Shown in pieces: positions 9,507 to 26,993 of a stretch of 64,000 bases of DNA (the stretch's first letter is position 1; every line of letters starts with the position of its first letter). The position numbers and the translations under genes are program-made. The stretch lies in assembly GCA_903859705.1 (NCBI GenBank), contig CAIONQ010000063.1, positions 55,611 to 119,610 of the forward strand. Direction: 5' to 3'. The stretch is from an uncultured Chthonomonas sp. (GTDB lineage: Bacteria; Armatimonadota; Chthonomonadetes; Chthonomonadales; Chthonomonadaceae). The notes below the pieces were generated by a model. It saw nothing but the letters and a program-made list of their open reading frames with translations, ran no database searches and had not been told where the DNA came from.

Positions 9507-12500
9507 ATGTTTGGAGGAAGTACCAGGATGTATGAAACAAACCCATTTGCTCCCCCGCTTGAACTGAAGTTGATGGGAGATCTAACAATCCTCATTGATG
9601 GGCATGAGGTATCTGATCAGGCATCACCAGACGGCTCAAGAAAACTTGCTGTGCCTGCAAAGACCATGCTAATTCTGGCATTTATTGCACTCAGCGGCGG
9701 AGAGGCATCACGCGAGAAAATTAGAGGAGCACTGTATCCAACAAATGACTCTGAAACTCAAAAAAACAATCTCAAGCAGCGCCTAACAGAACTACGTAAG
9801 GCACTTGGAGAGAAGAAAGACCTGCTTCAAGAAGATAACTATCCAAAGCTCTCACTGATTATGGACCAGGTGCAAGTGGATGTCCTGCAGTTCGATCGGG
9901 ATATCGTTTCCAACAGCCCGGCAGTTATGCAGGCTGCAGTTGAACGATATGCGCCGCTAATGCCTGGCTCTGATTCGCTGCCGTGGGTACTAACTGAGCG
10001 AAAGAAGCGCCTGGATGCATTTCATAGGGCTGTGGCTATACTTCGCAACCACCTGTATGAGCAAGGCCATTGGAAACAATCTGTGGCTATCAGCGAACGT
10101 GCATATACCTTTGATCCCCTGAATGAGATTGTATTTCAGCGATTCTTAGAGGCACTTGGCAACGCGAAAGATGCAACGCGTGTAAACGATGAGTTTGATA
10201 AGTGGGAGAAAAAGTGTAGGAAAACATTAGGGCGTGCGCCTGAGAAGTACACTGTTGAAATTCGGACACGGATAAACAACAACACTTGGAAGCAACCCGG
10301 GCCAGGCGCAAGATCATTGCTTACTCCGGCACAGACGATACTTCCGCCAGAAAACATAATCAAACCTCCGTATCTAATTAGTAACCTGATTGGGCGAGAA
10401 GGCGACATCAGCAAACTTCTGGATAGGCTCACTACGAAAAAGTCCAGGTTGATTACTATTTCGGGAGCTGGAGGACTGGGCAAAACCAGCCTGGCGGCCG
10501 AATTGGCCACGCAACTATCGGATCAGTTTCAAGGTTGGATCAGTTATGTAGAGCTGAGCAGTGTTACAAATCCTATATCGATTGGTCCAGAAATACTGAA
10601 ATCAATGGGCTACGAGGCTACGCCCGGCAAAGCATGGACTACGGACCTGCGTTCCAACTTGCCATCAACACCTGTTCTGATAATTGTTGATAACTGCGAA
10701 CACCTGAGAAAAGGTGCAGCAGAGGCACTGTTGAATCTACTGCAGGCCCTGCCTCAGGTGCAGGTGCTAACAACAAGCCGTGGGGGGCTGGGTATAACTG
10801 GTGAGTACCTTCACCATATTGAGCCACTGGCGGTACCCACGGAAGGCGATCTGCCAACAAGCAAAACAGACGTTAACGATTGGATAGAGAGCCATCCTTC
10901 TGTTACCTTGTTTATTACCCGGGCTCAGGAACGGCGAGATTTCGAACCGCGGATTGCAGATGCAACTCCCGTCTCCCAGATTTGCCGTAAGCTGGAAGGA
11001 ATTCCCCTTGCTCTGGAGATGGCTGCGTCTCGCACTACGGAATTCTCACTCACTGAGCTTGCTATGCGATTGGATGGCCTGTTTGATACTCTGAAGTGGG
11101 ACAACCCGGTGGTGGCAGACAGGCAGTTAACCATGGAGGCTATGGTTAAGTGGAGCGTGGACCTGCTTAAGCCAGAGGAGGCGAGCCTGCTTCGGGCCAT
11201 GGCACGCTTCCGTGCCGGCTTTACAGAAGGGATGCTCGCCCGTGTTTGGAGTGATAACCCCAACGATAGCCGCGTGCAGTTGCTCATAGGTAACCTGATT
11301 AGGGTAGCATTGGTGAGATCTCCCGAAATAGATAACAATGAAGTCAAACAGTATCGAATGTTCGAGGTAATCAGGGAGTATGCGGCATACAGGTTGAACC
11401 AGGGGCCTACCATACCAGACTTGCCAGATCAATCGACAAGCTCTCTCGATGGCCGCTATGTTGAGGCGTACGCGACATACGTAACCGAGATATACAGAAC
11501 GATAAATAGCACAGAGGAAGCGATTGCATTCAGGGCAATTGACGTTGAGTTTGATAACGTACGCCATGCCATAGAGCTTGCATTGAGTGCTGCCACAATC
11601 AATGCCAAAAATATGCAAATGATTGATTGTCTGTGGAAATACTGTGGGCACCGGGGACTCGGAAGTGTGCAGCTCGATTGGTACACGCTAGCAAGATCGC
11701 TCCCGCTCGAGAGCGATATCGACACAGATCTGCTGCTGGACGTATTAATTCACACTGGCAATACCGCGATAGCAGTTGGAGACATGATAACCGCTGAACA
11801 ATGCTACTCACAGATGTTGGTTGAGGCCGAGCGTACACAAAACTATGACGATATTGGCGTTGCCAGAGGCAATTTGGCACTCGTTTATGAGCGCTCGGCG
11901 AATTACGAGCTGGCACTACAAGAGGCAATATCGGCGCTGGAGTACGTGAGGAAACATGAGGCCCTCAAGCCCGAGAAGTCTGCCACACCTCTTGAGAGCG
12001 AATACGTGCTGATTGGTAATATCGGCTCTTTACTCCGCGCTCTGGGCCGCTATACCGAGGCCATCGAGCGTTATCAGGAGAGCATTTTACTACAAGAACC
12101 TACCCCAACAGCAACGCGTTTTGCCCGTACTTTGTGTGAATGTGCCTACACTATGGCACTGGCACACCGATTTATCGAGGCAAATTCTAACCTTGCAAGG
12201 GCATTAAAATACCTGACCGATGTGGAAAGCCATCTTACCATTCCCATTGCCCTGAGCGTCGGCCTTGAGCTTGCAGCGGGATGCGAAGATCTTGAACCCC
12301 TCGCCTGTTTGCTGGGAGCGTTTGATGCAGCAATAGCTCGGTCACCCGCTACCATGGAGCCGCAACTACAGGCCTGCCGTGAACGTGCTCAGGATGTGTT
12401 GTTAACGCTCAATGCAGAGGCATACACGAACGCCTACAAAGCGGGCTTCGCAACCACGAACCACAATGCGCTGGAGTTGCTTAAGAGGGCAGTTCAACAG

Positions 12501-12518
12501 TGGAACAGCCAGCTCTAA
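9507..12518 (+). CDS. AfsR/SARP-like STAND regulator: winged-HTH + BTAD + NB-ARC P-loop NTPase + TPR
   Basis: The N-terminus has an OmpR/SARP-like DNA-binding pattern ('LMGDLTILIDGHEV...AKTMLILAFIALSGGEASREKIRGALYP'). P-loop 'ITISGAGGLGKTSLAAELA'. The C-terminus has TPR-like repeats. 1003 aa. Confidence 0.8.
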   Translation: MFGGSTRMYETNPFAPPLELKLMGDLTILIDGHEVSDQASPDGSRKLAVPAKTMLILAFIALSGGEASREKIRGALYPTNDSETQKNNLKQRLTELRKALGEKKDLLQEDNYPKLSLIMDQVQVDVLQFDRDIVSNSPAVMQAAVERYAPLMPGSDSLPWVLTERKKRLDAFHRAVAILRNHLYEQGHWKQSVAISERAYTFDPLNEIVFQRFLEALGNAKDATRVNDEFDKWEKKCRKTLGRAPEKYTVEIRTRINNNTWKQPGPGARSLLTPAQTILPPENIIKPPYLISNLIGREGDISKLLDRLTTKKSRLITISGAGGLGKTSLAAELATQLSDQFQGWISYVELSSVTNPISIGPEILKSMGYEATPGKAWTTDLRSNLPSTPVLIIVDNCEHLRKGAAEALLNLLQALPQVQVLTTSRGGLGITGEYLHHIEPLAVPTEGDLPTSKTDVNDWIESHPSVTLFITRAQERRDFEPRIADATPVSQICRKLEGIPLALEMAASRTTEFSLTELAMRLDGLFDTLKWDNPVVADRQLTMEAMVKWSVDLLKPEEASLLRAMARFRAGFTEGMLARVWSDNPNDSRVQLLIGNLIRVALVRSPEIDNNEVKQYRMFEVIREYAAYRLNQGPTIPDLPDQSTSSLDGRYVEAYATYVTEIYRTINSTEEAIAFRAIDVEFDNVRHAIELALSAATINAKNMQMIDCLWKYCGHRGLGSVQLDWYTLARSLPLESDIDTDLLLDVLIHTGNTAIAVGDMITAEQCYSQMLVEAERTQNYDDIGVARGNLALVYERSANYELALQEAISALEYVRKHEALKPEKSATPLESEYVLIGNIGSLLRALGRYTEAIERYQESILLQEPTPTATRFARTLCECAYTMALAHRFIEANSNLARALKYLTDVESHLTIPIALSVGLELAAGCEDLEPLACLLGAFDAAIARSPATMEPQLQACRERAQDVLLTLNAEAYTNAYKAGFATTNHNALELLKRAVQQWNSQL

Positions 12519-13104: not shown

Positions 13105-13150
13105 GCCTCCAGCCCCGAATGCGATGCATTTGGGGCTGGAAGTGTGTTTG
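13105..13150. terminator. Hairpin between convergent genes; putative bidirectional terminator
   Basis: Stem ctccagcccc / ggggctggaag, followed by tgtgtttgg. Confidence 0.5.
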
Positions 13151-13161
13151 GACTGGTATTG

Positions 13162-14487
13162 CTATTTTTCCAGAGTATCGAGTGCCGCAGATCCATTGTG
13201 CCAGCTGTGGCTGAACATAATGCCGAGAAAGTGGCCCCGAAGTTCATCGATACCATAGGTTAACTTTGCCTCGCTGTAATTTGGAAATCTGCGTGCCACG
13301 AAAAGGTCATATGAGTCTTTGTAACCATTATTCATCAGGCTTGAGGCTTTGTAGTCCGCACCTACATGCCATATCCACCGGCTGAGGTAGGTGCGTTCGC
13401 AACCTACAATCTCACGCACTTTTTGATCTTGAAAATACATGCTTACAGACGGAACGATTGCTGTTGAATAACCAAGCTCGTTCGACTTTTCGTGGGTGTA
13501 CATGGCAGATACAGACCCAAAGATAACCCCAGCTCCTGCTTGAACAAGTGGTGAAAGAACCGATGAGCCAACGTTATACCTCCGAATTGCACCTGGCGCG
13601 TTGATTGCGCCTGCGCTTAGGTTGTATTGAGTTGAATTGGCAACTGCCTCGGCCCATTTACGTGCGTTCTCAATGCAAAAGTGTGCAACATATGCCTCGG
13701 CAATGCTAATTGTGTCACCTTCTTGGTAACTATAAGATCTCAGGAAGTCAATTGCGATGGCTGCTGCAGACAAAGCTCGCGCATACGGCGATTGAGCAAA
13801 ACCAGGCATGATGCTCGCGCTAAATATATATGCTCCATGGCCGGTTGCAACCGCGCCAGCTGTTAGGTCCTCACCGTAGCGTTTGTCGCTGAAATTCGCA
13901 AGTGCAACCGCCGAAACCCTGCTGTCATGTACAACAGAAGTCAAATAGAGTGTAGTAGAGTTAGTCCCAGGTTTAGAAGTGATGGATTGCCGCAGCACTT
14001 TCACATCCGGAGTAATGTCTCCTACCCAGTGCTTGAACGGTCCTGTGGCTTCGGTAAATTTTTCCGGCGTGCTAACAACAGCCAATGAAACTGCTATCGC
14101 GTTTAGGTACTTATCTTCGAGGCCTGGAGCCGGTTTCAAGTATTCAAGGCGCTTGATCATTTCTCCCAACACAGGCGGCAATGGACTATTGAGCCCTGCG
14201 ATTTTTCCTTTCAAACCATAGCGTCCATTCTTGCTGTCGTTAATCAGGGAAGCCAAGTTTTTATAGTTATCCAAGAAGTTTACTGGCGTATCCTGCACAT
14301 CTGGTATTAAACTCGCCATAGAACTGCGCTTCAACACATCTGATATAGACATAGAGCTGATTGCCGTAGTGTATTGAACCGGATTTGCAGGCGGAGCCTC
14401 ATTTGCGGCGCTACGTATCGATAGCGATGACGCTAAAGCCAGAAGGCCCGATAATAATGTTTTGTGCGTATGCATCATGCGGAACAT
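13162..14487 (-). CDS. Secreted hypothetical protein (441 aa), probable distal gene of the CHAT-STAND cassette
   Basis: N-terminal signal peptide 'MFRMMHTHKTLLSGLLALASSLSIRSAA'. A GGAGG ribosome-binding site lies 7 nt upstream. It starts only 67 bp after the CHAT-STAND stop codon, with no convincing terminator in between. No family recognised. Confidence 0.6.
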   Translation of the reverse strand: MFRMMHTHKTLLSGLLALASSLSIRSAANEAPPANPVQYTTAISSMSISDVLKRSSMASLIPDVQDTPVNFLDNYKNLASLINDSKNGRYGLKGKIAGLNSPLPPVLGEMIKRLEYLKPAPGLEDKYLNAIAVSLAVVSTPEKFTEATGPFKHWVGDITPDVKVLRQSITSKPGTNSTTLYLTSVVHDSRVSAVALANFSDKRYGEDLTAGAVATGHGAYIFSASIMPGFAQSPYARALSAAAIAIDFLRSYSYQEGDTISIAEAYVAHFCIENARKWAEAVANSTQYNLSAGAINAPGAIRRYNVGSSVLSPLVQAGAGVIFGSVSAMYTHEKSNELGYSTAIVPSVSMYFQDQKVREIVGCERTYLSRWIWHVGADYKASSLMNNGYKDSYDLFVARRFPNYSEAKLTYGIDELRGHFLGIMFSHSWHNGSAALDTLEK

Positions 14488-14554: not shown

Positions 14555-17551
14555 CTATTTGAGATGAATTAGCTCTTCGATTTTTCCCCTCACCTTCTTT
14601 GGTCTATCATCGGATGGGGGCAGATACTTTAAGTAGATGTCTTGACTGGTGCTATAGTGTTGCAAAGCCGATTCCGTATTGCCAAGTAAACGTTGGTTCT
14701 CGGCGATATAATAGTGCGATGCTGCACAATGTAAGTGCCGTTCGCCAATACTGCCACACCGCATCTGGAGCGCTGTGTTGTGGCAAACGAGTGCGGCATT
14801 CAGATTACCCGTTGCTGTAAGGCAACGGCCTTTATTGTCAAGCATAGATGCGATACGCTGGAGACGTGGATTCTTCTTTTGCTCCTCAACGTCAAGCGCA
14901 AGGTTGAGACACTTAAGTGCGTCCTCGTACATGGCGAGATCCTCGTATGTGGTACCCATATTGTTGTGAATTGAAGCTCTCGTTCGTAGCACGCTACCTT
15001 CCTGGCCTAAGAGCACCGATAGACCTTTCTGGTACCAGCCGATTGCACATTCCTTGGAAGCAACGGCACCACACGCATTAAAGAATCGGCCAAGCTCATG
15101 GCTGTCGGCAGGCACAGACCTTTCAGCCATGCGAAGCGCCTCATGGAAGTAATTTTGTACCTGCTCGTCGCTGTCGTTCTTTTCGCGAATGTTGTCTCCT
15201 TTTTGAACCAACAGATCTGCTCGCCGCAAAGAGGAGGTTTCGCCCATGCAATCGAGCAGTTGCTCTGCCCCATCCAGGTCTCTCAACGCTGAATCATAAT
15301 CTGCCATGGATTGCCGGACTTCTGCTGAAGCTATGAGCATCTCGACAGCTTCATCCCATAACTTGTGCTTGCGGCATTGGTTGGTAATCTCGGCAGCATG
15401 TGGCAGCAGCGAGAAGCAGTATTGCCAGCGGGCCGCCTCAATCCCCTGGCGTAACGCTTCTGTTATCGCTTTGGCTGCGCGGGCAGTAGCTGCTTTCAGC
15501 GTTTTGCTTGAGGCGCTGTGGCGCAGATATTGGCGTACTAATTCGTGTAATGCCACGTAGCCCTGGTCCGTTTTTTTGAGCAGAGCCCCGTCTCTAAGAT
15601 AAGCGATTTGGTCTAGCGCATTATCGGTAGATTTCTCGCCGCTGGATTGCTGCAGAAGATCAACGGGAATGGGCTCCTCTGCAAAACACCCCGTTGCCAG
15701 AAGCATGCGTCTTGTTTTATGGCCCAGGCTCTTGATTGCAATGTCGATACTATCAAATAGGGATCCTGAGTGGCCTGTAACACTTGTAAAACGGGTGCGG
15801 GCACGTGTAAGTGTTTTCACCGGCTCTGCGCGCAATATCTGGAGATACTGGCTGAATGGGATATCCAGCCGTGCAACATGGTGGGCTGCCAGTGTAAGTG
15901 CAAGCGGCAAATTGCCGATGATTTTCGTAATCTCCAGCACTGCTGCACTATCTTGCGCTGTAATTGCCGAGCGTCTTGACTGTAATAGGGCAGATGCGCC
16001 CTCTTCGTCCAGCGCATCCAGGCATATTGGCCTAAACCCTGATGGCAGATGAGCCGATCTGCATGTTGCCAGCACGGTGCAGATATTTGCAACAGGCAGC
16101 CATGCCTCCGGTGTTGAATCGGTTACGTTATCGTATATGAACAACGTTTTCTGTGTCCCTCGCTGGAGGATTCTCAGGGCCTCATGCTCGCGATTTGCCA
16201 GTGATTCCGGTATGTGTAACAAGTCTGCAATCTCGGAAAAGCTGCTCTTGATGCTGTCCTCATTTGCTGCTCGAACCCAGAAAGTGCCACCTGGATATTT
16301 GTCTCTCGCGGCGTGGGCATACTGGCTGGCCAACATGGTCTTCCCAATTCCAGAGATGCCAAATATCACTGCACGGGTAGCACGTCCAGCAGTGGTCTCA
16401 AAGTGTAGTGCCTGTATATCAGCTTCTCTACCGTTGAATTCGCCAGAGTGCGGAAAAGGCAAAACCTGCATTGCATCACCTCTTGCCATCCACGTTTGGG
16501 AGGAGCTGTGTGATGATGCAAATAGAACCGGGGCTACCCAATCGGCACCATGGCCCTCGATGGCCGTTCTTGCGCCAGAAACGGCCTGCTCAAGTGTGTC
16601 CTGGCAGGTAAGCGCGCCGTAAAGAGCCCGGGAAAACTGCCGCACGCTTACTTCTCGAAGCGGGCTCTGGTGGCAAAGAATTGATGCAGATATTTGCCGC
16701 GATAACTCTGCCCCTAATCCAATGGTGTCGCAAGCGTTCAATATCACAAGCTTAAGCCTGGGAAATTGGAGCATGGGCTGCAGATTGCCAGCGTGCAAGC
16801 GGGCGTAGCCAGTATCGGATTTCAGAATGATAGCAGCGGGTGCGAGGGATGTTGCAGGTTCCGCATGCCCGATAAAGTGGAGCACATCAGGCTGGAATTC
16901 GGCGAGGGCAGCCTCTAACATGGCAGGCGTAGCATTCGCAAGAACGCGGGTTTCTATGCGTCTGCACTCTGGCGAGGCATGAAGAATCGCCTCAATGTCG
17001 CGCGCTTCTTTTCGAGCCTGCGTAAGGTGGGCATATTGGCCAGATTGAGGGTCTGCCCAGACGATCAGAACCACCAGCCGATCTGTGAGATCCTGGTTAT
17101 ACAGGGCGAGTTCGGAAGGCTGCTCCGGCGGGGAGGTTAGGCGTAAAAAATGGATGCAAGGACTTAGCGCCAGGAAGTTTGGCCGGTCCAGCAAATGCGA
17201 AAACGTATCAACATGGGCAATCTCCCACGGTATTGTGTTAAGTGCATCTGGTAACCGCAAACCCAATCTTACCTTCGATGCTTTGTTCCGCATAACCGTT
17301 GCATCTACTGCGCTGGTAACAAGGTTGGGCAGCAATGCGGCGGCAACAGCGGTACCCAGATCCCGCATTGTTTCAGGTGGAATGCCAGTTTCTTTGAAGG
17401 TACTGAAGGCGTCTGCGGCCATTTGCGCCAGTTGACTTGCAGATCCGCACGAATCACGAAACGTTCTTGCACCATGTGCAGCTTCACACCATATCTGGTC
17501 TCCATCATCATCAAGTGTTAGAACAAATTGGATTTCAGTACACTCGTTCAC
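14555..17551 (-). CDS. STAND NTPase with N-terminal CHAT (caspase-like) domain, central NB-ARC/NACHT-like P-loop ATPase and C-terminal TPR array
   Basis: CHAT His/Cys dyad 'LHFIGHAEP' ... 'LVILNACDT'. Walker A 'VIFGISGIGKTMLASQYA'. C-terminal TPR repeats ('NNMGTTYEDLAMYEDALKCLNLAL', 'LDNKGRCLTATGNLNAALVCHNTALQM'). 998 aa. Confidence 0.85.
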   Translation of the reverse strand: MNECTEIQFVLTLDDDGDQIWCEAAHGARTFRDSCGSASQLAQMAADAFSTFKETGIPPETMRDLGTAVAAALLPNLVTSAVDATVMRNKASKVRLGLRLPDALNTIPWEIAHVDTFSHLLDRPNFLALSPCIHFLRLTSPPEQPSELALYNQDLTDRLVVLIVWADPQSGQYAHLTQARKEARDIEAILHASPECRRIETRVLANATPAMLEAALAEFQPDVLHFIGHAEPATSLAPAAIILKSDTGYARLHAGNLQPMLQFPRLKLVILNACDTIGLGAELSRQISASILCHQSPLREVSVRQFSRALYGALTCQDTLEQAVSGARTAIEGHGADWVAPVLFASSHSSSQTWMARGDAMQVLPFPHSGEFNGREADIQALHFETTAGRATRAVIFGISGIGKTMLASQYAHAARDKYPGGTFWVRAANEDSIKSSFSEIADLLHIPESLANREHEALRILQRGTQKTLFIYDNVTDSTPEAWLPVANICTVLATCRSAHLPSGFRPICLDALDEEGASALLQSRRSAITAQDSAAVLEITKIIGNLPLALTLAAHHVARLDIPFSQYLQILRAEPVKTLTRARTRFTSVTGHSGSLFDSIDIAIKSLGHKTRRMLLATGCFAEEPIPVDLLQQSSGEKSTDNALDQIAYLRDGALLKKTDQGYVALHELVRQYLRHSASSKTLKAATARAAKAITEALRQGIEAARWQYCFSLLPHAAEITNQCRKHKLWDEAVEMLIASAEVRQSMADYDSALRDLDGAEQLLDCMGETSSLRRADLLVQKGDNIREKNDSDEQVQNYFHEALRMAERSVPADSHELGRFFNACGAVASKECAIGWYQKGLSVLLGQEGSVLRTRASIHNNMGTTYEDLAMYEDALKCLNLALDVEEQKKNPRLQRIASMLDNKGRCLTATGNLNAALVCHNTALQMRCGSIGERHLHCAASHYYIAENQRLLGNTESALQHYSTSQDIYLKYLPPSDDRPKKVRGKIEELIHLK

Positions 17552-17597: not shown

Positions 17598-18725
17598 CTA
17601 AAGTGGATCGTGAATTATCTGTGCTCGGAATACCCATGCCGGATCGATCAAACTTGCCGATCCAGGCAACTCAAATGGAGTAGCTTCGATGGCAGTTTCC
17701 ATTATGCGCAGCCGCGCAATGGTTTGTACCGAATGTGGGATGGCATCAAGCTCAAGCTCCAAGAGCTCACCCTCAAGCGCCATGCATGCACCCGGCGTCA
17801 TAGTTGCAATCCATGTACCGCTATCCATGCTTATCAGAGTTACGGGTTGTGGCTGCATTCCACTGCCGTTGTTTATAGACGCCAGTACTGTTCTTGAACT
17901 TGGTGGGCCCTCCGTGGTTGCAAAAGCGCTCTCTGCAGACCGGATTTCAATGTAAGAAGGTGGAAACACACCCTCTGTAACTCCAAAATAGCCACCGACC
18001 TCAGGCACTACCCACTGCCACACACCACCATCCGGCGAGGTGAAAGCAACTGGCACCCGGCGCCCCACAGGGCCTATGCAAAGCACAGTATCCGGGAGAG
18101 CCAATTCGTGTTCTGGCGTGGTTGCAGTCACAAATAAGGTGCCAGTTTCGTCTGTTTCACATCGAGAGAGCCGGAGGCTAACGTCTGAACCGTCGTTGCC
18201 AGGAACTGTGAATTCAAACCTTTCGGCAGTGGCGCCACGTGCAACAGCGGGGGCAGCCGTTTGCGCTGCTAGTCGCGCCTGCTCGCCCAGCAGTCTTACA
18301 ACCGAACCAAAGGCACTGATCGCCGCACGAAGCCAGCCGGCGGATCGGTTTGGATATGCATCGGAGTTTGTTTGAACAGGGATAGTTAGAGCTTCAAGTC
18401 GCGACCCTACTATGTGTAGCCATGCCTCCGCTACCTCCTGCTGTTGAGGGGTTGTTGCAACGGATCGAACTTCGGCCAGAGGGACCTTCTGCATGGCGCA
18501 CAGTGTTTTGCGCACATCGCGCAGTTCGGCCCTTGTAGATGCACTCTCCACCAGCGCAATGGTAACGCCGTCGTACTCTTCCGGGGTGGCGGTTCCCGCC
18601 ATATAAGCCACCAGCATGGCCACTGTTGGTAACACCACGGGCTCGGGAGCCGGAGGAGTTTTCAATAGCTGGAAAACAGGATCTATTTGTTCAAATTCGC
18701 TCACTGGATGTGGATCAGGCATCAA
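17598..18725 (-). CDS. Hypothetical protein (375 aa), translationally coupled to the upstream sigma-like gene; candidate anti-sigma/adaptor
   Basis: Its start overlaps the upstream gene's stop by 11 nt. It lies 46 bp upstream of the CHAT-STAND gene. No recognisable domain, no signal peptide and no transmembrane segment. Confidence 0.55.
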   Translation of the reverse strand: MMPDPHPVSEFEQIDPVFQLLKTPPAPEPVVLPTVAMLVAYMAGTATPEEYDGVTIALVESASTRAELRDVRKTLCAMQKVPLAEVRSVATTPQQQEVAEAWLHIVGSRLEALTIPVQTNSDAYPNRSAGWLRAAISAFGSVVRLLGEQARLAAQTAAPAVARGATAERFEFTVPGNDGSDVSLRLSRCETDETGTLFVTATTPEHELALPDTVLCIGPVGRRVPVAFTSPDGGVWQWVVPEVGGYFGVTEGVFPPSYIEIRSAESAFATTEGPPSSRTVLASINNGSGMQPQPVTLISMDSGTWIATMTPGACMALEGELLELELDAIPHSVQTIARLRIMETAIEATPFELPGSASLIDPAWVFRAQIIHDPL

Positions 18726-19953
18726 ACCCCTCCTTCCCGTTGTACAGCTCCTGCCACACTTTTTTTACCTGCTTCAAGAGGCGATACTGGCTTATCCACG
18801 CCTCGGCGGTTGTATGAGTGAGGGCGAAACCGAACTGTTGGCCCGGTTGAGATATCCGTTCCAGAATATCGTTAACTGGCAGATCAACCTGGTAGCGATA
18901 CTGAAAAGCCATGCGCTGCCATAGAGGCGGGCTGTTGATCTGGGCGGCTCGGACGATGTCTTCTCGCTGTGCCTCCAACTGCTTCCTTGTCTCGATGGCC
19001 ATCCGGGCAAACGGCAGCCGGACAGAGAGCTCAGTCAGTTTTTCCTGAATTGCCAATCTGGTGATCTCTGGCCATCGGCCGGTAACTCGCTCCATCGCAA
19101 CCTCACGGCTAAGTCCGAAGTAGTACCTGGCAGTCGCAGTCACCAGCTCTTCCCATCGGGGTTCTGCATCTGGTACTGAAGAGCTGTTCCAGTGGTCTGT
19201 AACGGATGCGTCCGTAAGCGCCGGGTTACTCAGCAGCTCTTTCAGCAAGTTCAGAGGGTCCAGCATGAGCTTCCGGTAAACGTACATCAGTACCGTTGCG
19301 GGATCGTACAAAATGCCCAAAATCAGCTCCGCATTCACCGCATGGTGGTATTGCTTTAGTGCGCCGCGGAACGTGTAGACGAGGTCTTCCATTTCATCAC
19401 CATCGTCAAAAAACATACTGGCAATGGCTTGCCTGATATTTATCTCTTCTTCAATGCTGTTGGCATCTACCTTTAGCCACCGCACATCTGCACACCACAT
19501 TATCTGTTGGTACAAATCTCGGTTGATGGCGTCAATTTCAATGTTGATGTCATCAGGATCATCTTCCTCGAGGCCTTCTTCCGTATGAAGCTGTGAGAGT
19601 TGAATTGGGCGTCGCTTGCGAAAATGGTCAATGCAAAGGTTGTCTGCAGTTTTGCGCAACAACGCAAATACGCCGTTTCCTGACCTCACGTCGGTAGTAT
19701 GTCGGCTTTCCCAAAGGCGACTGCAGGCCATATTCACAATTTCTTCGCGATCATCATATTGGATTGAGCAGTAGCTTCTTATTAGGTAGTGCTTGAGTCT
19801 CGGTGTCAGTTCTTCAACAAGCCTATCAAAGGCTCGTTTAGCATTATTTGAATCGGCCGATGTCACTGCTGTCCATAAACGCAGTATTTCCACTCTGAAT
19901 CTCCCACAAAAATCCCCCTGCAACGAGGGAAGAACAGACAGCGGCCACCGCAC
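18715..19953 (-). CDS. Sigma-70 family-like protein (412 aa) with a region-2-like N-terminus, a long insert and a degenerate region-4-like segment
   Basis: 'AFDRLVEELTPRLKHYLIRSYCSIQYDDREEIVNMACSRLWESRH...GVFALLRKTADNLCIDHFRKRRP' matches the ECF region-2 pattern. 'ARYYFGLSREVAMERVTGRWPEITRLAIQEKL' is region-4/HTH-like. This is an atypical architecture. Confidence 0.55.
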   Translation of the reverse strand: MRWPLSVLPSLQGDFCGRFRVEILRLWTAVTSADSNNAKRAFDRLVEELTPRLKHYLIRSYCSIQYDDREEIVNMACSRLWESRHTTDVRSGNGVFALLRKTADNLCIDHFRKRRPIQLSQLHTEEGLEEDDPDDINIEIDAINRDLYQQIMWCADVRWLKVDANSIEEEINIRQAIASMFFDDGDEMEDLVYTFRGALKQYHHAVNAELILGILYDPATVLMYVYRKLMLDPLNLLKELLSNPALTDASVTDHWNSSSVPDAEPRWEELVTATARYYFGLSREVAMERVTGRWPEITRLAIQEKLTELSVRLPFARMAIETRKQLEAQREDIVRAAQINSPPLWQRMAFQYRYQVDLPVNDILERISQPGQQFGFALTHTTAEAWISQYRLLKQVKKVWQELYNGKEGFDA

Positions 19954-20085
19954 TCAAATTAACTGTGTGGTGCCCGTGGTAAAACAATAGGCCCGTGCGA
20001 CTTCATAGGTGCAAACAGGCAGTCTTTGCAACAATACCGAACTATTGGACCGGTTTGCTAAGGAATCCTCTTTAATTAAACCCCA

Positions 20086-22945: not shown

Positions 22946-25495
22946 ATGCATCAGGCAACACATAGAATGCGGGCCAGGCTCTTAACTATTGCAATTGCAA
23001 TTCCAACAACGGTAATTGTGGTTGCAGCACACGCTGGCCCTCCAGTGGTCGGCCGCCCTTCTTATCCTGGCCCCAGCCCGGACAAGGTGCGATTTTTCAA
23101 CACAGAAGTACTGCCAATTCTGAAGGAATCGTGCTTCAATTGCCACGGTAGCGGAGCGCAGTTAAGCGGCGGCCTGAGTATGACCACGCACGATTCTCTG
23201 TTTAAGGGCGGCGTATCGGGCTCTGCACTCAGGGCAGATAAGCCGGAAGATAGCCTGCTGGTAAAAGCTGTTAACTATCAGGGCCGAGAAATGCCGCCCT
23301 CTGGCAAGCTGCCACCCGCAAAGATAGCCGTTCTCACCAAATGGGTTGCTATGGGTGCACCCATGCCGCTCGGTTCTGTTGCTGCACCGGGGGCTGCCAA
23401 GCCCAGCGGAATTCCCGTAACGCCGGAAACAAAAAACTTCTGGAGTTTCAAACTTCCAAAACGCTCCCCGCTTCCCACGGTAAAGAACAAAGCGTGGAGC
23501 GCAAACCCAATCGATAGGTTCATCCTTGCGGGCCTCGAGAAAAATGCTCTGCTTCCTGCGCCTCGTGCCTCTAAAATTGCCCTGCTTCGGCGCGCAACCT
23601 ATGATTTAACAGGGCTGCCGCCAACGCCTAAAGAGGTCGCAGATTTTCTTGCAGACACATCCCCAAAGGCATACGAAAAGGTTGTAGATCGCCTGCTGGC
23701 ATCTCCCCATTATGGAGAGCGTTGGGCACGCCATTGGCTGGATCTGGTAAGGTACGCCGAGAGCAACAGCTTTGAGCGAGATAACCCCAAGCCTTTTGCA
23801 TGGCGATACCGGGACTATGTAATTGGCGCGCTGAACAACGATAAGCCGTATAACCAGTTTATCACGGAGCAGCTTGCCGGTGATGAGCTGCCGAAGAGAA
23901 CAGATGAAGCGCTAATTGCCACCGGTTACTATCGCCTTGGCGCGTGGGATGATGAGCCATCAGATCATGAACAGGCCCGCTATGATGAACTCGACGACAT
24001 TGTGGCGACCACCGGCCAGGTGTTCCTGGGGCTTACCGTAAACTGCTCTCGCTGCCACGATCATAAGATTGATCCAATACCACAGAAGGATTACTACCGG
24101 CTCCTCTCATTCTTTCAGGGAACAAAGCGGTACGGTGGTACTGGCGGGTCTGTAGAACAGAACTCTCTTCGTGCAATTGGTCCAGAAGAAGAAAAACAGC
24201 GATTTGCGCGGGAAGACAGCGAGTATCACCGCAAACTTTCTGGCGTACTTACTCGCCTCAAAGCCATTGAGGGCGCAATCATCCCCGATCTTTCCTCTGT
24301 CGAAAAGGAAGAATGGGGCAATCCTCAGGCTCGGCTTGCAGCGCTAAAAAAGCGGGTGCCGGCAAAAGTGGCAGAAGAAACCTACCGCGAAGCCATAGCA
24401 CTGGACAATGAACGTAGAGATCTGGAAAAGTCCCCACCAAAAGGGCTTGAGTTGGCGCTGTGCGTTACAGAGGGTGGCAAAACAGTACCCGCAACACATG
24501 TTATGCTGCGTGGCAACCCGCATGTGCCGGGAGACGAAGTGCAGCCCGGCTTCTTGAGCGTGCTCAGTCCGCCAGAGCCGGTTATACCAGAGTTGCCTTC
24601 AGACGTGGCGTCTTCTGGCCGTCGCTCAGCCCTGGCCGCCTGGATTGCTTCCGCCAATAACCCGCTCACCGCGCGAGTATTTGTCAACAGAATTTGGCAG
24701 CACCATTTCGGCAGAGGAATTGTTCGCACTACCAGCAATTTCGGTTTTCAGGGCTCAGCACCAACCCATCCGGAACTGCTGGATTGGCTCTCAACCGAAG
24801 TTGTAAAAAGCGGCTGGAAAATCAAAACTCTCCACAGGTTAATAATGCTCTCCAACACTTACTGCATGAGCTCTAAAGGCAATGCTGTTGGCCTGAAGAA
24901 GGATCCGGAGAACAACCTGTTCTGGCGTTTTGATATGCGTAGGTTGGATGCAGAAGAAATAAGAGACTCCATGCTGGCGGTTAACGGAACTCTAAATCTT
25001 CAGATGGGTGGCCCACCTGTTTATCCCAAAATTCCGGCAGAGGTGCTGGCCGGCGAATCGCGCCCGGGCGCAAACTGGGAAGATTCAACTCCGGAACAGA
25101 TGGCGCGGCGCTCTGTGTACATCCACATAAAGCGATCGCTAACAGTACCCATCCTGGCATCCTTCGATGTGGCCGATACGGATTTCACCTGCCCTGTTCG
25201 ATTTGCCACCACACAGCCAACTCAGGCTCTGGGGTTAATAAACAGCACGTTCGCAAACGAGGAAGCAGCACTCTTCGCAGAGTACGCCCGCAAACAGGCG
25301 CCGGAGAGCTCGGCGAAGCAGATATCCCTTATACTGGCCCGCGTAACGCAGCGCACTCCGACTGCGGCCGAGATAGCCAGAGGGCAGAAGTTCATCAAAA
25401 CCGTGATGACAAGAGATCATGTTTCTGAGCAGGATGCGCTGAAATACTACTGCGTAGTTGCGCTTAACCTGAACGAGTTTATCTATCTGGATTGA
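22946..25495 (+). CDS. PSCyt/PSD protein (planctomycete cytochrome c domain + DUF1549 + DUF1553)
   Basis: Signal peptide. Heme-binding motif 'CFNCHG' and a second 'CSRCHDHK'. The 849-aa architecture is typical of the PVC-specific family. Confidence 0.88.
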   Translation: MHQATHRMRARLLTIAIAIPTTVIVVAAHAGPPVVGRPSYPGPSPDKVRFFNTEVLPILKESCFNCHGSGAQLSGGLSMTTHDSLFKGGVSGSALRADKPEDSLLVKAVNYQGREMPPSGKLPPAKIAVLTKWVAMGAPMPLGSVAAPGAAKPSGIPVTPETKNFWSFKLPKRSPLPTVKNKAWSANPIDRFILAGLEKNALLPAPRASKIALLRRATYDLTGLPPTPKEVADFLADTSPKAYEKVVDRLLASPHYGERWARHWLDLVRYAESNSFERDNPKPFAWRYRDYVIGALNNDKPYNQFITEQLAGDELPKRTDEALIATGYYRLGAWDDEPSDHEQARYDELDDIVATTGQVFLGLTVNCSRCHDHKIDPIPQKDYYRLLSFFQGTKRYGGTGGSVEQNSLRAIGPEEEKQRFAREDSEYHRKLSGVLTRLKAIEGAIIPDLSSVEKEEWGNPQARLAALKKRVPAKVAEETYREAIALDNERRDLEKSPPKGLELALCVTEGGKTVPATHVMLRGNPHVPGDEVQPGFLSVLSPPEPVIPELPSDVASSGRRSALAAWIASANNPLTARVFVNRIWQHHFGRGIVRTTSNFGFQGSAPTHPELLDWLSTEVVKSGWKIKTLHRLIMLSNTYCMSSKGNAVGLKKDPENNLFWRFDMRRLDAEEIRDSMLAVNGTLNLQMGGPPVYPKIPAEVLAGESRPGANWEDSTPEQMARRSVYIHIKRSLTVPILASFDVADTDFTCPVRFATTQPTQALGLINSTFANEEAALFAEYARKQAPESSAKQISLILARVTQRTPTAAEIARGQKFIKTVMTRDHVSEQDALKYYCVVALNLNEFIYLD

Positions 25496-25541: not shown

Positions 25542-26993
25542 ATGAGCGAATTTTGTGGCCGAACGCGCCGGGAATTTCTGTGGCAAACAGGTGGTGGCTT
25601 TACTGGCGTAGCCCTGGCATCCATGCTAGCAGAAGATGGATTTATGGATTCGCAGGCGCATGCAGCCGATGGTGTTTCGCGGTTCAGTAATCCGCTGGCC
25701 CCCAAAAAGCCACATTTTCCGGCCAAAGCCAAGAGTGTCATCTTTCTGTATATGTACGGTGGCCCCAGCCAGATAGATACGTTCGACTACAAACCTGGTA
25801 TGAAGGGCATGGATGGCAAAACTGTACAGGTATCCACATTTGGCCGGGGTGGCCACAAAAACGAAGGCCGGATCGTTGAGCCAAAGTGGAACTTCAAGCA
25901 GTATGGTCAGTGCGGCGCCTGGGTGTCGGATCTGTTTCCGAACCTTGCAACCTGCGTAGATGATGTGGCGTTCATCAAATCGATGACCGCCGATTCACCC
26001 ATTCATGGCTCCGCCATGATCCAGATGAACACAGGAAAAATCCTGAGCGGCAGCCCATGCATCGGTTCCTGGGTGAACTATGGTTTGGGCACTGTTAACC
26101 AGAACCTTCCCGGTTTTGTAGTTATGCTGGATCCCAGAGGTGGCCCAATCAGCGGCGCTAAAAACTGGAGCAGCGGTTACATGCCGGCATCCTACCAGGC
26201 AACCGTTACGGTGCCCGGTGATACACCTATTCTGAACCTGAAGCGTCCGGCAGGAGAATCAGACCCGGTTCAGCGCGAGATTTTGGATACTCTCAAAGAG
26301 TACAACTCTGAACATGAGGCCATGCGTGGCGATAACTCTAATCTCGCTGCCCGCATCGCAAGCTATGAACTGGCCTACAGAATGCAATCGGCTGCACCAG
26401 AGGCAATAGATGTTCATAAGGAACCTGCTCACATCCAGGAGATGTACGGCCTGAACGATAAAAAGACTGAGGTGTTCGGAAGGCAGTGTTTAATGGCACG
26501 CCGCATGGTGGAGCGTGGAGTTCGTTTCATTCAGATCTATTCTGGCGGAAACCACACCGAAACCACCTGGGATGCCCACAACGATATTATGGAGAACCAC
26601 ACGCTGCACGCGGGTGAAACTGATAAACCGATTGCTGGCCTGCTGAAAGATCTTAAGCAGCGCGGCATGCTGGATAGCACACTTATCGTGTGGGGCGGCG
26701 AGTTCGGCCGCCAGCCCACCGCAGAATATGCAGTGGGCACTGGCAGAGATCACAACTGCTTCGGCTTTACTATGTGGATGGCGGGTGGCGGAATTAAGGG
26801 TGGCGTAAGCGTTGGGAAAACCGATGAACTTGGAAGCAAGGCCATAGAAGACCCATTCAAGGTGAAGCACCTGCACGCAACCATCCTGCATCAGATGGGC
26901 ATAGATCCGAACCGCCTCAGCTACTTCTATGGCGGCCTTAACCAGAAGCTTGTGGGTGTGGAACATACCGATCCCATCAAGCAGATTATCTAA
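25542..26993 (+). CDS. DUF1501 (sulfatase-like) protein with a Tat signal; canonical partner of PSCyt/DUF1553 proteins
   Basis: Twin-arginine motif 'TRREFLWQTGGGFTGVALASML'. DUF1501-like core. Immediately downstream of the DUF1553 gene. Confidence 0.88.
   Translation: MSEFCGRTRREFLWQTGGGFTGVALASMLAEDGFMDSQAHAADGVSRFSNPLAPKKPHFPAKAKSVIFLYMYGGPSQIDTFDYKPGMKGMDGKTVQVSTFGRGGHKNEGRIVEPKWNFKQYGQCGAWVSDLFPNLATCVDDVAFIKSMTADSPIHGSAMIQMNTGKILSGSPCIGSWVNYGLGTVNQNLPGFVVMLDPRGGPISGAKNWSSGYMPASYQATVTVPGDTPILNLKRPAGESDPVQREILDTLKEYNSEHEAMRGDNSNLAARIASYELAYRMQSAAPEAIDVHKEPAHIQEMYGLNDKKTEVFGRQCLMARRMVERGVRFIQIYSGGNHTETTWDAHNDIMENHTLHAGETDKPIAGLLKDLKQRGMLDSTLIVWGGEFGRQPTAEYAVGTGRDHNCFGFTMWMAGGGIKGGVSVGKTDELGSKAIEDPFKVKHLHATILHQMGIDPNRLSYFYGGLNQKLVGVEHTDPIKQII

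What the first reader, a model, noticed from the sequence alone, without database searches (positions are those of the whole stretch)
14555..17551. CHAT domain with intact His/Cys dyad at the N-terminus of a STAND NTPase
'LHFIGHAEP' and 'LVILNACDT' match the catalytic His and Cys contexts of CHAT/caspase-like proteases, so the protease is predicted to be catalytically competent. The Walker A motif 'GISGIGKTMLASQYA' and the long C-terminal TPR array give the domain order effector–NTPase–sensor. The N-terminal 100 aa before the CHAT domain has no obvious motif.
Basis: partly seen in the sequence, partly recalled or inferred. Interest (0 to 1): 0.6.

Follow-up and report, generated by a model that had tools for sequence, protein, structure and literature searches.

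The report
Caspase-like STAND protease linked to sigma factor
The gene really does encode a caspase-like (CHAT) protease fused to an NLR-type ATPase and a TPR sensor, which is a known kind of protein, but across distant bacteria it sits in a conserved three-gene operon with an unusual ECF-type sigma factor and an uncharacterised partner, which suggests the protease switches on transcription by cutting that partner.

Summary
Window 14555-17551 (minus strand) is a 998-aa ORF with a CHAT domain (Pfam E=1e-15), an NB-ARC STAND NTPase and C-terminal TPRs. H229 and C274 align with the experimentally defined dyads of SAVED-CHAT (H375/C422) and DdvA (C907), and they are invariant in 13 homologues. Walker A and B, RNBS-B, GLPL and MHD-like motifs are present. 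CHAT-NOD-repeat proteins are already described in bacteria, so the protein alone is a new member of a known kind.

Best reading, which is inferred and not shown: the STAND-activated CHAT protease cleaves the middle protein, a putative anti-sigma with a conserved P-x-x-A-x-x-R-G junction motif, and this releases the sigma factor. The logic matches Craspase and CalpL, but the sensor is an NLR-like ATPase. No description of such a module was found in the searchable literature.

The parts
14555..17551 (-). CHAT-NB-ARC-TPR protein (998 aa, GTG start; identical to P0001)
   Evidence: ORF and translation. Pfam CHAT, NB-ARC and TPR_12 all above their cut-offs. The identical protein is called on 10-12 public contigs.
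16559..17326 (-). CHAT (caspase-like) protease domain, aa 76-331
   Evidence: Pfam PF12770, E=1.1e-15. A profile of the module's CHAT regions matches SAVED-CHAT 8tl0 at E=1e-20 and 8rot_B (taken to be DdvA) at E=0.0017.
16865..16867 (-). Codon of H229, the predicted catalytic histidine (second His of LHFIGHA)
   Evidence: Aligns with SAVED-CHAT H375. Invariant in 13 homologues, whereas H225 is a Tyr in L018.
16730..16732 (-). Codon of C274, the predicted catalytic cysteine (LNAC)
   Evidence: Aligns with SAVED-CHAT C422 and with residue 907 of 8rot_B, which is DdvA's published C907. Invariant in 13 homologues.
15524..16438 (-). NB-ARC-type STAND NTPase module, aa about 372-676. Motifs: Walker A GISGIGKT (398-405, K404), Walker B LFIYDN (D474), RNBS-B-like VLATCRS (493-499), GLPL-like GNLPLAL (546-552), MHD-like ALHELV (667-672)
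   Evidence: Pfam NB-ARC 25.5 bits (cut-off 23.5), plus AAA_16 and NACHT below their cut-offs. Motifs read from the sequence and conserved in the alignments.
14558..15454 (-). C-terminal helical/TPR repeat region, aa about 700-998, the presumed sensor
   Evidence: Pfam TPR_12 (three stretches, best 858-931) and TPR_1. Aligns with kinesin light chain TPRs over aa 783-990. FxSxx_TPR model extends to aa 969.
17598..18722 (-). Middle gene: a 374-aa cytoplasmic protein of no known family (identical to P0184); putative anti-sigma and protease substrate. Its ATG overlaps the sigma gene's stop by 8 nt, and a GGAGG lies upstream
   Evidence: Start and overlap. No TM segment. No Pfam, NCBIfam, PADLOC or PDB match. 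Homologues lie between the sigma and CHAT-STAND genes in 15 loci. AlphaFold gives a confident helical domain for aa 30-108 only.
18234..18251 (-). Conserved P-A-V-A-R-G motif of the middle protein (aa 158-163 of the 374-aa protein). It is the best-conserved element of the family and a candidate cleavage site after R162
   Evidence: Alignment A7 has an invariant Ala and near-invariant Pro and Arg at the junction between the helical N-terminal half and the beta-rich C-terminal half. The motif lies in the non-regular segment between helix 126-155 and strand 170-174 of a low-confidence model. Coordinates.
18715..19893 (-). ECF-type sigma factor with a ~200-aa conserved C-terminal extension (392 aa, identical to P0027; the open frame extends to a GTG at 19953)
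19894..20085 (-). Leader/promoter region upstream of the sigma-like gene, more conserved than the flanking genes
   Evidence: 89% identity to L026, against 77% for the MFS CDS and 81% for the sigma CDS. No Rfam family and no unusual folding energy. The ECF-type motif found in other loci is not present here.
13162..14487 (-). Downstream 441-aa gene with a signal-peptide-like N-terminus. It is possibly co-transcribed but is lineage-specific and not part of the conserved module
   Evidence: No family. Conserved only in the close relative L027 at 84% identity. Absent from the other loci. No strong terminator separates it from the CHAT-STAND gene.
13108..13140 (.). Hairpin with a 15-bp stem between convergent genes, the likely end of the minus-strand transcription unit
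   Evidence: Terminator-like scan.

Best explanation
The ORF encodes a cytoplasmic NLR-like signalling protease. A C-terminal TPR sensor and an NB-ARC STAND NTPase control an N-terminal CHAT (caspase-like) protease that has an intact His229/Cys274 dyad. It is the third gene of a conserved operon: an ECF-type sigma factor, then a ~375-aa partner, then CHAT-STAND.

Proposed mechanism:
- At rest, the partner protein holds the sigma factor inactive through its N-terminal helical domain.
- A ligand bound by the TPR array triggers nucleotide-dependent oligomerisation of the STAND module.
- Oligomerisation activates the CHAT domains.
- The protease cuts the partner, possibly after the conserved Arg of the P-x-x-A-x-x-R-G junction motif.
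- The freed sigma factor directs RNA polymerase to its regulon, including its own operon.

Shown here: the domain architecture, conservation of the dyad and the NTPase motifs, the conserved three-gene linkage, the sigma-factor identity of the first gene, and an ECF-type promoter upstream of the sigma gene in four related loci.

Inferred: that the partner binds sigma, that it is the protease substrate, the cleavage site, and the nature of the signal.
For: Architecture and active site.

NTPase motifs conserved in all 13 CHAT-STANDs.

Operon signals: the sigma stop overlaps the partner start by 8 nt, the gap to the CHAT-STAND gene is 46 nt, and there is no strong internal terminator.

Conserved linkage: sigma, partner and CHAT-STAND occur in the same order and orientation in 13 of 18 informative loci (10 non-redundant lineages), from a Planctomycetota-like genome, Armatimonadota MAGs and other metagenomes, at only 20-30% protein identity. 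An all-against-all comparison finds these three as the only families that recur widely across the loci; the next largest real family is a small upstream ORF in 6 loci. Their pairwise divergences correlate, r=0.55-0.68.

The partner tracks the protease: the two loci whose STAND gene lacks CHAT (L011, L024) also lack the partner.

Sigma identity.

Autoregulation: GAACG-N15-ATCTA(A/T)C lies 120-134 nt upstream of the sigma start in L003, L009, L018 and L019. About 0.6 exact matches are expected in all the sequence scanned.

Partner protein: cytoplasmic, with a confident N-terminal helical domain at aa 30-108. Its most conserved element is a short Arg-Gly motif at a domain junction.

Precedents: Craspase Csx29 cleaves the CASP-sigma inhibitor Csx30. 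CalpL cleaves the anti-sigma CalpT. Bacterial caspase-like proteases with strict P1-Arg specificity and a preference for small neighbouring residues are known.
Against: - The partner has no detectable similarity to any anti-sigma domain. Pfam zf-HC2 appears in 1 of 14 members at E=0.85. The zinc ligands are absent. There is no PDB hit, although Csx30 and CalpT structures have been reported.
- Its AlphaFold model is poor overall (pLDDT 41).
- A sigma-partner complex prediction could not be run.
- The ECF-type promoter motif is absent from the window's own leader, and window matches are at chance level.
- The CHAT-STAND gene is not always adjacent: it is 6 kb away in L008 and not seen within 2.4 kb in L015.
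- The protease fold itself was not modelled.
- Nothing here shows binding, cleavage, NTP dependence or a trigger.
Confidence: 0.5

Rival explanations
1. Stand-alone abortive-infection effector of the Avs or bacterial-NLR type. After sensing a phage protein, the STAND oligomer unleashes a promiscuous protease that degrades many cellular proteins and stops growth. The sigma factor and its partner only regulate expression of the operon.
For: CHAT is a frequent N-terminal effector of bacterial NLR-like proteins. Caspase-like proteases in type IV Thoeris and the PCaspase cascade are promiscuous, Arg-specific death effectors.
Against: No PADLOC Avs, NLR or other STAND model matches any of the 16 proteins scanned. 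Only the CHAT domain hits SAVED_CHAT. The window neighbourhood (MFS transporter, ROK regulator, planctomycete cytochromes, HtrA-like protease) is not a defence island. The rival does not explain why the partner protein co-occurs with CHAT and disappears with it. The module is absent from viral contigs, which is neutral.
Confidence: 0.22
2. Pro-sigma processing. The protease substrate is the sigma factor itself, and removal or cutting of its ~200-aa C-terminal extension activates it. The middle protein acts as an adaptor or protease inhibitor.
For: The sigma family carries a long, conserved C-terminal extension beyond the sigma2-sigma4 core. C-terminal extensions regulate some ECF groups, and pro-sigma processing is established for sigma-E and sigma-K in Bacillus (established knowledge). 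A PCaspase cascade does cleave a sigma factor.
Against: The extension is predicted to be well folded (pLDDT above 90) and offers no obvious exposed conserved linker other than residues 100-125 between sigma2 and sigma4. The L011 and L024 sigma genes keep the extension although no CHAT is encoded next to them.
Confidence: 0.12
3. The middle protein is a latent toxin or effector that cleavage activates, as with gasdermins and the other protease-effector modules. The sigma factor only provides inducible expression.
For: Linked protease-effector pairs in which site-specific cleavage releases a death effector are widespread, including next to STAND sensors. The middle protein has two halves joined at a conserved short motif.
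Against: It matches no PADLOC gasdermin or effector model and no Pfam family. It has no membrane-active features. It is translationally coupled to the sigma gene rather than to the protease gene. This rival does not explain why a dedicated, unusual sigma family is always present.
Confidence: 0.11
4. The CHAT domain is a non-catalytic scaffold (pseudo-protease), and the protein acts as a STAND-type regulator by binding alone.
For: DdvA's CHAT site is incomplete and at rest in the solved structure, and mutating its dyad had no phenotype.
Against: His229 and Cys274 and their sequence contexts are invariant across 13 homologues at 20-30% identity, which indicates selection for catalysis.
Confidence: 0.04

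Closest known systems
Type III-E CRISPR 'Craspase': Cas7-11 with Csx29 (TPR-CHAT), Csx30 and CASP-sigma (RpoE)
   Different: Here the sensor is an NB-ARC STAND NTPase fused to the protease, not an RNA-guided Cas7-11. No cas genes are seen in the flanks. The domain order is CHAT-NTPase-TPR rather than TPR-CHAT. The partner protein shows no detectable similarity to Csx30. There is no Csx31 equivalent. The sigma factor carries a ~200-aa extension.
CalpL-CalpT-CalpS (type III-B CRISPR SAVED-Lon protease, anti-sigma and ECF sigma)
   Same: A tripartite arrangement of sensor-protease, cytoplasmic anti-sigma and ECF-like sigma. Oligomerisation of the sensor activates cleavage of the anti-sigma.
   Different: The protease class differs (Lon-like serine protease versus CHAT cysteine protease). 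The sensor differs (a cOA-binding SAVED domain versus STAND and TPR). CalpL-CalpT-CalpS is CRISPR-linked.
Bacterial 'all-in-one' NLR-like proteins with an N-terminal CHAT (Koonin and Aravind 2002; Dyrka et al. 2020), and Avs proteins with protease effectors
   Same: The single-protein architecture is identical: CHAT effector, NB-ARC/NACHT NOD module and TPR/WD40 repeats. The NB-ARC+TPR part resembles actinobacterial AfsR- and FxSxx-type proteins.
   Different: Those proteins are described as stand-alone cell-death or immunity effectors, or as partners of amyloid-motif proteins. A dedicated sigma/partner pair is not part of their description. No PADLOC Avs or NLR model matches this protein.
[quoted passage not shown]
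   Same: A CHAT protease domain is tied to release of an ECF sigma. The catalytic Cys aligns exactly, C274 with C907.
   Different: In DdvA the CHAT domain is fused to a transmembrane zinc-binding anti-sigma and sits in the periplasm, and release is proposed to need RseP. Here every component is predicted to be cytoplasmic, the protease is a separate STAND protein, and no zinc anti-sigma domain is present.
SAVED-CHAT / PCaspase cascade with PCc-sigma (type III-B/CBASS hybrid)
   Same: Its CHAT domain is the closest solved relative (8tl0, E=1e-20). Activation is by oligomerisation, and a sigma factor is encoded in the locus.
   Different: The sensor is a SAVED domain that binds cA3. The CHAT substrate is a second protease, and the sigma factor is cleaved by that second protease.
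EACC2-caspase systems with a neighbouring ECF sigma and DUF1822 TPR protein (Kaur et al. 2021)
   Same: A comparative-genomics prediction that a caspase-fold protease system feeds into a coupled ECF sigma factor.
   Different: The components differ: an EACC2 domain, a classical caspase rather than CHAT, and a separate TPR protein. No STAND-CHAT fusion and no family like the 375-aa partner are described.

Membership tests
CHAT domain proteases (Pfam PF12770; caspase/separase-like cysteine peptidases) | Significant match to the family model over most of its length | tested here: met
   58.3 bits, E=1.1e-15, against a cut-off of 24. Profile positions 9-266 of 289 are covered. 13 of the 16 proteins scanned also match.
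CHAT domain proteases (Pfam PF12770; caspase/separase-like cysteine peptidases) | Catalytic His at the position of the experimentally defined His | tested here: met
   H229 aligns with chain index 355 of 8tl0, which is SAVED-CHAT H375 given the constant +20 offset that the Cys also requires. Invariant in 13 homologues.
CHAT domain proteases (Pfam PF12770; caspase/separase-like cysteine peptidases) | Catalytic Cys at the position of the experimentally defined Cys | tested here: met
   C274 aligns with SAVED-CHAT C422 and with residue 907 of 8rot_B, which is DdvA's published C907. Invariant.
CHAT domain proteases (Pfam PF12770; caspase/separase-like cysteine peptidases) | Caspase-hemoglobinase alpha/beta fold with the dyad side chains adjacent | not tested
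   Both structure-prediction jobs went to the sigma-like and middle proteins. No model of this protein was made.
CHAT domain proteases (Pfam PF12770; caspase/separase-like cysteine peptidases) | Peptidase activity | not testable with these tools
   Needs biochemistry.
STAND NTPases, NB-ARC (AP-ATPase) type | Match to the NB-ARC model | tested here: met
   25.5 bits against a cut-off of 23.5, so the pass is marginal, covering aa 396-554. 12 of the 16 proteins scanned match, best E=2.4e-11. NCBIfam FxSxx_TPR (NB-ARC+TPR) scores E=1e-40 over aa 370-969.
STAND NTPases, NB-ARC (AP-ATPase) type | Walker A (GxxxxGK[ST]) and Walker B (hhhhD) | tested here: met
   GISGIGKT at 398-405 and LFIYDN at 470-475. 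Both are conserved in all 13 CHAT-STANDs.
STAND NTPases, NB-ARC (AP-ATPase) type | NB-ARC signature motifs downstream of the P-loop (RNBS-B TxR, GLPL, MHD-like His) | tested here: met
   VLATCRS at 493-499, GNLPLAL at 546-552 and ALHELV at 667-672, read from the sequence and conserved in the alignment consensus (LATxR, LPLAL, RxHxL). The motif definitions come from established NLR literature.
STAND NTPases, NB-ARC (AP-ATPase) type | C-terminal repeat (sensor) domain | tested here: met
   TPR_12 and TPR_1 are above their cut-offs. The region aligns with kinesin light chain TPRs.
STAND NTPases, NB-ARC (AP-ATPase) type | Ligand- and nucleotide-dependent oligomerisation | not testable with these tools
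   Needs biochemistry or structure determination.
Catalogued anti-phage STAND systems (Avs, bNACHT and others in PADLOC-DB v2) | Match to a defence-system STAND model | tested here: not met
   There is no Avs or NLR hit. The window protein gives only a sub-threshold SAVED_CHAT hit (E=0.005), and 12 of the 16 proteins scanned hit SAVED_CHAT through the CHAT domain alone.
Catalogued anti-phage STAND systems (Avs, bNACHT and others in PADLOC-DB v2) | Location in a defence island | tested here: not met
   The flanking genes are an MFS transporter, a ROK regulator, PSCyt/PSD1, an AP endonuclease 2 fold protein and an HtrA-like protease. The only related gene nearby is a second STAND. GC content is unremarkable.
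Protease-gated sigma/anti-sigma modules (Craspase, CalpL-T-S, DdvA-S) | Protease gene in conserved linkage with an ECF-type sigma gene | tested here: met
   13 of 18 informative loci show the same order and strand.
Protease-gated sigma/anti-sigma modules (Craspase, CalpL-T-S, DdvA-S) | A partner protein that binds and inhibits the sigma factor | tested here: inconclusive
   A conserved partner exists and is translationally coupled to sigma. It has no homology to known anti-sigmas. Only its N-terminal helical domain is modelled with confidence.
Protease-gated sigma/anti-sigma modules (Craspase, CalpL-T-S, DdvA-S) | Cleavage of the partner by the protease | not testable with these tools
   The only lead is a candidate site, the conserved P-x-x-A-x-x-R-G motif.
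Protease-gated sigma/anti-sigma modules (Craspase, CalpL-T-S, DdvA-S) | [quoted passage not shown] | tested here: not met
   No Cas families occur among the genes within about 10 kb in the window or its same-species contigs. CRISPR arrays were not specifically scanned for.
ECF sigma factors (for the upstream gene 18715-19893) | Sigma2 and sigma4 domains without sigma1.1 or sigma3 | tested here: met
Class I anti-sigma domain (zf-HC2/ASDI) (for the middle gene) | Match to the anti-sigma domain model, or the HxxxCxxC zinc motif | tested here: not met
   Only 1 of 14 members hits zf-HC2, at E=0.85. The zinc ligands are absent from the alignment. A resemblance of LVxYLxGxL...VE..L......R..L to the ASDI consensus is recalled from memory only.

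The most novel reading that the evidence does not exclude
This is a previously undescribed three-component signalling system, found in at least two phyla. A bacterial NLR-like ATPase uses its fused caspase-like CHAT protease to license a dedicated, unusually extended ECF-type sigma factor by cutting a new kind of cytoplasmic anti-sigma protein. Bacterial NLRs would then have a transcriptional, non-suicidal output, and Craspase/CalpL-type logic would operate without CRISPR.
Probability: 0.4. Interest if true: 0.75.

Novelty: new variant of a known kind. Interest (0 to 1): 0.6.

Why it matters
Bacterial NLR-like STAND proteins with protease effectors are generally assumed to kill or arrest the cell, and what their caspase-like domains actually cleave is mostly unknown. 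This locus offers a concrete and genetically compact answer that can be tested directly.

- Candidate substrate: the ~375-aa partner protein.
- Candidate cleavage site: the conserved Arg-Gly junction motif.
- Read-out: a dedicated ECF-type sigma factor, with a recognisable autoregulatory promoter in related loci.

If the model is right, it links NLR-type sensing to sigma-factor control. It would also extend the protease/anti-sigma/sigma logic, so far known from type III CRISPR accessories and envelope-stress pathways, to a CRISPR-independent cytoplasmic sensor. Two uncharacterised protein families would gain a function: the extended sigma family (about 200 clusters at 50% identity) and the partner family. 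As with Craspase, such a ligand-gated protease with a defined substrate could be engineered into a tool.

Tried and rejected
- Word-indexed homologue searches with the CHAT-STAND, the sigma-like protein and the middle-protein alignment returned few relatives (26, 2 and 9). The exhaustive HMMER search was needed to reveal the sigma family.
A subset sharing the W[QRK]RLAFQY motif worked. As a result the locus sample is biased toward that sub-clade of the sigma family.
- The AlphaFold model of the middle protein from 9 sequences was poor (pLDDT 41), so no fold search was run on it.
- AFDB Foldseek was unavailable.
- Anti-sigma homology of the middle protein: profile against the PDB and a permissive Pfam scan were both negative.
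- Gasdermin or defence-effector identity of the middle protein and the 441-aa protein: no PADLOC hits.
- The ECF-type promoter motif in the window is at chance level (26 matches with up to 2 mismatches, 35 expected). Antisense motif copies inside the sigma genes of L012, L019 and L020 were rejected as promoters because they come from conserved D/V-R...P-F codons.
- An RNA element in the conserved leader: no Rfam hit, folding z-score 0.55.
- The 441-aa downstream gene as a fourth module member was rejected. It is conserved only in the closest relative.
- The ECF sigma + YCII genes near the distant homologue in L005 were judged unrelated, because that sigma belongs to a different family and is not adjacent.
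- Viral contigs: no relatives.
- Source names and organism for the window proteins: none on record.

Full report
**1. The observation**

Window 14555-17551 is a single 998-codon ORF on the minus strand with a GTG start.
- LHFIGHAEP at aa 224-232
- LVILNACDT at aa 268-276
- GISGIGKTMLASQYA at aa 398-412

Pfam supports the reading:
- CHAT: aa 76-331, E=1.1e-15, 58.3 bits against a cut-off of 24.
- NB-ARC: aa 396-554, 25.5 bits against a cut-off of 23.5.
- TPR_12 and TPR_1: C-terminal, above their cut-offs.

NCBIfam's NB-ARC+TPR model FxSxx_TPR covers aa 370-969 at E=1e-40, below its equivalog cut-off. Gene callers predict the identical protein on 10-12 public metagenome contigs, and a 92% homologue exists.

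There are three corrections:
- The gene is on the minus strand.
- The region outside the CHAT model is about 60-75 aa, not 100. It is homologous to the N-termini of related proteins from about residue 19.
- The second histidine, H229, is the catalytic candidate.

**2. Is the protease site intact?**

The closest solved relative is the SAVED-CHAT protease 8tl0. phmmer aligns query LHFIGHA and LNAC with the chain's LHFIGHG and LNAC. The aligned residues are chain indices 355 and 402. The published catalytic dyad is H375/C422. Both residues need the same +20 offset and have the same 47-residue spacing.

A profile built from the CHAT regions of 12 module members hits 8tl0 at E=1e-20. It also hits 8rot_B, a 991-aa chain taken to be DdvA because the length matches. 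Counting along the printed alignment, the aligned Cys is residue 907, which is DdvA's published catalytic C907.

H229, C274 and the upstream PWE motif are invariant in CHAT proteins of 20-30% identity. H225 is a Tyr in one homologue. The fold was not modelled here.

**3. The NTPase and sensor**

The following motifs are present, and their equivalents are conserved across the 13 CHAT-STAND homologues:
- Walker A: GISGIGKT (K404)
- Walker B: LFIYDN (D474)
- RNBS-B-like: VLATCRS
- GLPL-like: GNLPLAL
- MHD-like: ALHELV

The C-terminal ~300 aa contain TPRs.

This single-protein architecture is not new. [quoted passage not shown] No PADLOC Avs or NLR model matches the protein; only its CHAT domain resembles SAVED_CHAT.

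**4. Surroundings in the window**

Four minus-strand genes run in series:
- A 392-aa protein with a Sigma70_r2 domain (18715-19893).
- A 374-aa protein of no family (17598-18722). Its ATG overlaps the sigma stop by 8 nt and follows a GGAGG.
- The CHAT-STAND gene, 46 nt further on.
- A 441-aa protein with a signal-peptide-like N-terminus (13162-14487).

A hairpin with a 15-bp stem follows at 13108-13140. None of the four proteins has a predicted TM helix. The flanks encode an MFS transporter, a ROK regulator, planctomycete-type cytochromes with DUF1553 and DUF1501, and a second STAND NTPase. This is not a defence island, and GC content is unremarkable.

**5. The linkage is conserved**

A distant CHAT-NB-ARC homologue (P0003, 28% identity) in two assemblies follows genes that match the window's sigma-like protein (E=1.5e-21, full length) and, weakly, the N-terminus of the middle protein.

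An exhaustive HMMER search with the sigma-like protein found 198 clusters (78 at E<=1e-10). Nearly all are 350-410 aa and aligned end to end. They share signature motifs such as GLWQRLAFQYRY..LPHRDIxER.

Loci were fetched by that motif from genomes (4 loci, all Armatimonadota MAGs) and from metagenomes (14 loci). This sampling is blind to CHAT. Of 18 informative loci:
- 13 (10 non-redundant lineages) have sigma, middle protein and CHAT-STAND in the same order and orientation: window, L003/L004, L009, L010, L012, L014, L016, L018, L019, L020, L021, L022, L025.
- L008 has the sigma-middle pair adjacent and the CHAT-STAND gene 6 kb upstream.
- L013 has a convergent STAND gene cut by the contig end.
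- L015 has none within 2.4 kb.
- L011 and L024 have a STAND-type gene without CHAT, and both also lack the middle protein.

An all-against-all comparison finds these three as the only families that recur widely. The next largest real family is a small upstream ORF in 6 loci. The 441-aa gene is lineage-specific. Pairwise divergences of the three proteins correlate at r=0.55-0.68. No relatives were found on viral contigs.

**6. What the partners are**

hhalign against E. coli RpoE places sigma2 and the sigma4 HTH in family positions 17-189 at 96.5% probability. The remaining ~200 aa are a conserved C-terminal extension. The general ECF model TIGR02937 scores below its cut-off.

In four distant loci (L003, L009, L018, L019, plus L020 with one mismatch) an ECF-type bipartite motif, GAACG-N15-ATCTA(A/T)C, lies 120-134 nt upstream of the sigma start. 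About 0.6 exact matches are expected in all the sequence scanned. This is the autoregulation typical of ECF sigma factors.

The window's own leader lacks the motif. It is nevertheless more conserved (89%) than the flanking coding sequence (77-81%) when compared with its closest relative.

*Middle protein.* It matches no Pfam, NCBIfam, PADLOC or PDB entry. Its alignment shows a helical N-terminal half and a beta-rich C-terminal half. The best-conserved element, P-x-x-A-x-x-R-G (PAVARG, aa 158-163), sits at the junction. AlphaFold with a shallow alignment is confident only for a helical bundle at aa 30-108. It places the motif in a non-regular segment between helix 126-155 and strand 170.

**7. 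Most likely mechanism**

Shown:
- A catalytically equipped CHAT-NB-ARC-TPR protein.
- Its conserved operonic linkage to an ECF-type sigma factor and a partner protein.
- Co-loss of CHAT and the partner, in two loci.
- Sigma autoregulation in related loci.

Inferred:
- The partner sequesters the sigma factor.
- Ligand binding by the TPRs and nucleotide-driven STAND oligomerisation activate CHAT.
- CHAT cuts the partner, possibly after R162, and frees the sigma factor.

Precedents for the inferred steps:
- Csx29 (TPR-CHAT) cleaves Csx30, a non-canonical inhibitor of CASP-sigma.
- CalpL cleaves the anti-sigma CalpT.
- DdvA couples a CHAT domain to an ECF sigma.
- Bacterial caspase-like proteases with strict P1-Arg specificity and a preference for small neighbours exist, and separase also cuts after Arg.

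Confidence is about 0.97 for the architecture, about 0.8 for a functional link to the sigma module, and about 0.5 for the anti-sigma cleavage model as a whole.

Rivals:
- A promiscuous abortive-infection protease, with the sigma pair as a mere expression regulator (0.22).
- Pro-sigma processing of the C-terminal extension (0.12).
- The partner as a cleavage-activated toxin (0.11).
- A pseudo-protease scaffold (0.04).

**8. Comparison with what is known**

The system works like Craspase or CalpL-T-S, but it fails their membership tests. It has no CRISPR association, a different sensor, and a partner that is not homologous to Csx30 or CalpT. Taken alone, the protein is a member of the known CHAT-NOD-TPR class of bacterial NLR-like proteins.

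Kaur et al. predicted a caspase system coupled to an ECF sigma, but with different components. The ECF reclassification paper does not mention CHAT, caspase or NB-ARC neighbours in its main text. Full-text searches for a STAND/NLR-CHAT module with a sigma or anti-sigma found nothing. The library is incomplete, so this is absence of evidence only.

**9. Verdict**

The protein itself is a new member of a known kind. The conserved sigma/partner/CHAT-STAND module is best rated a new variant of a known kind: protease-gated sigma release with an NLR-like sensor. Interest is 0.6.

The main weakness is that the anti-sigma role of the partner, and its cleavage, rest on genomic association and analogy. 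The decisive complex prediction could not be run.

Noticed in passing
window 9507-12518 (+): A second STAND NTPase of 1003 aa (AAA_22, AAA_16, nSTAND1 and TPR_12, with a weak BTAD-like N-terminus) lies 2 kb from the module on the opposite strand. In the same-species contig L001 it is split into 547- and 453-aa ORFs, but it is intact (996 aa) in L002. This suggests a frameshift polymorphism or an assembly error.
   Followed up: partly
window 19894-20085 (-): The 192-nt leader upstream of the sigma-like gene is 89% identical to the closest relative (L026), while the flanking MFS and sigma coding sequences are 77% and 81% identical. It has no Rfam family and no unusual folding energy, and it lacks the ECF-type motif seen in other loci.
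   Followed up: partly
L027:1-120 (P0002, 92% identical CHAT-STAND): The closest homologue has a different, shorter N-terminus. It lacks the equivalent of window residues ~1-90 and has an in-frame stop 12 nt from the contig end. This could be a real N-terminal variant or an assembly-end artefact.
   Followed up: no
window 13162-14487 (-): A 441-aa protein with a signal-peptide-like N-terminus and no family lies directly downstream of the CHAT-STAND gene, with no strong terminator between them. It is conserved at 84% identity in L027 but absent from every other module locus.
   Followed up: partly
L021:15018-15042 and 16082-16106; L022:15147-15171 and 16197-16221 (minus strand): Two copies per locus of the GAACG-N15-ATCTATC promoter-like motif flank the gene downstream of the CHAT-STAND gene, on the opposite strand. 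The two boxes are conserved between L021 and L022 while the spacers have diverged. Their target is unclear and could be antisense transcription.
   Followed up: no
L003:8001-14488 (also L004): Two tandem CHAT-NB-ARC paralogues (59% identity) follow the sigma/partner genes. The partner gene appears to be split into a 298-aa ORF plus a short ORF that matches the C-terminal part of the family.
   Followed up: no
L011:10001-13193; L024:9938-12552: These are variant modules. The sigma-like gene is followed directly by a STAND-type protein without CHAT (L011: AAA_16+TPR, 700 aa) or by a sensor-only relative (L024: 504 aa, no P-loop), and the middle protein is missing in both. L011 also has the promoter motif, with a 14-nt spacer, upstream of a minus-strand 262-aa gene (13652-14440).
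   Followed up: partly
L009:9394-9720, L014:4769-5257, L016:9273-9749, L018:1109-1471, L019:537-845, L020:1845-2198 (all minus strand): A small (~100-160 aa) protein family of no Pfam family is encoded divergently, immediately upstream of the sigma-like gene, in six loci. The window has no copy.
   Followed up: partly
window 22946-25495 (+) and 25542-26993 (+): PSCyt1/PSCyt2/PSD1 (DUF1549/DUF1553) and DUF1501 genes are hallmarks of Planctomycetota-type genomes. They give the likely origin of the window.
   Followed up: partly
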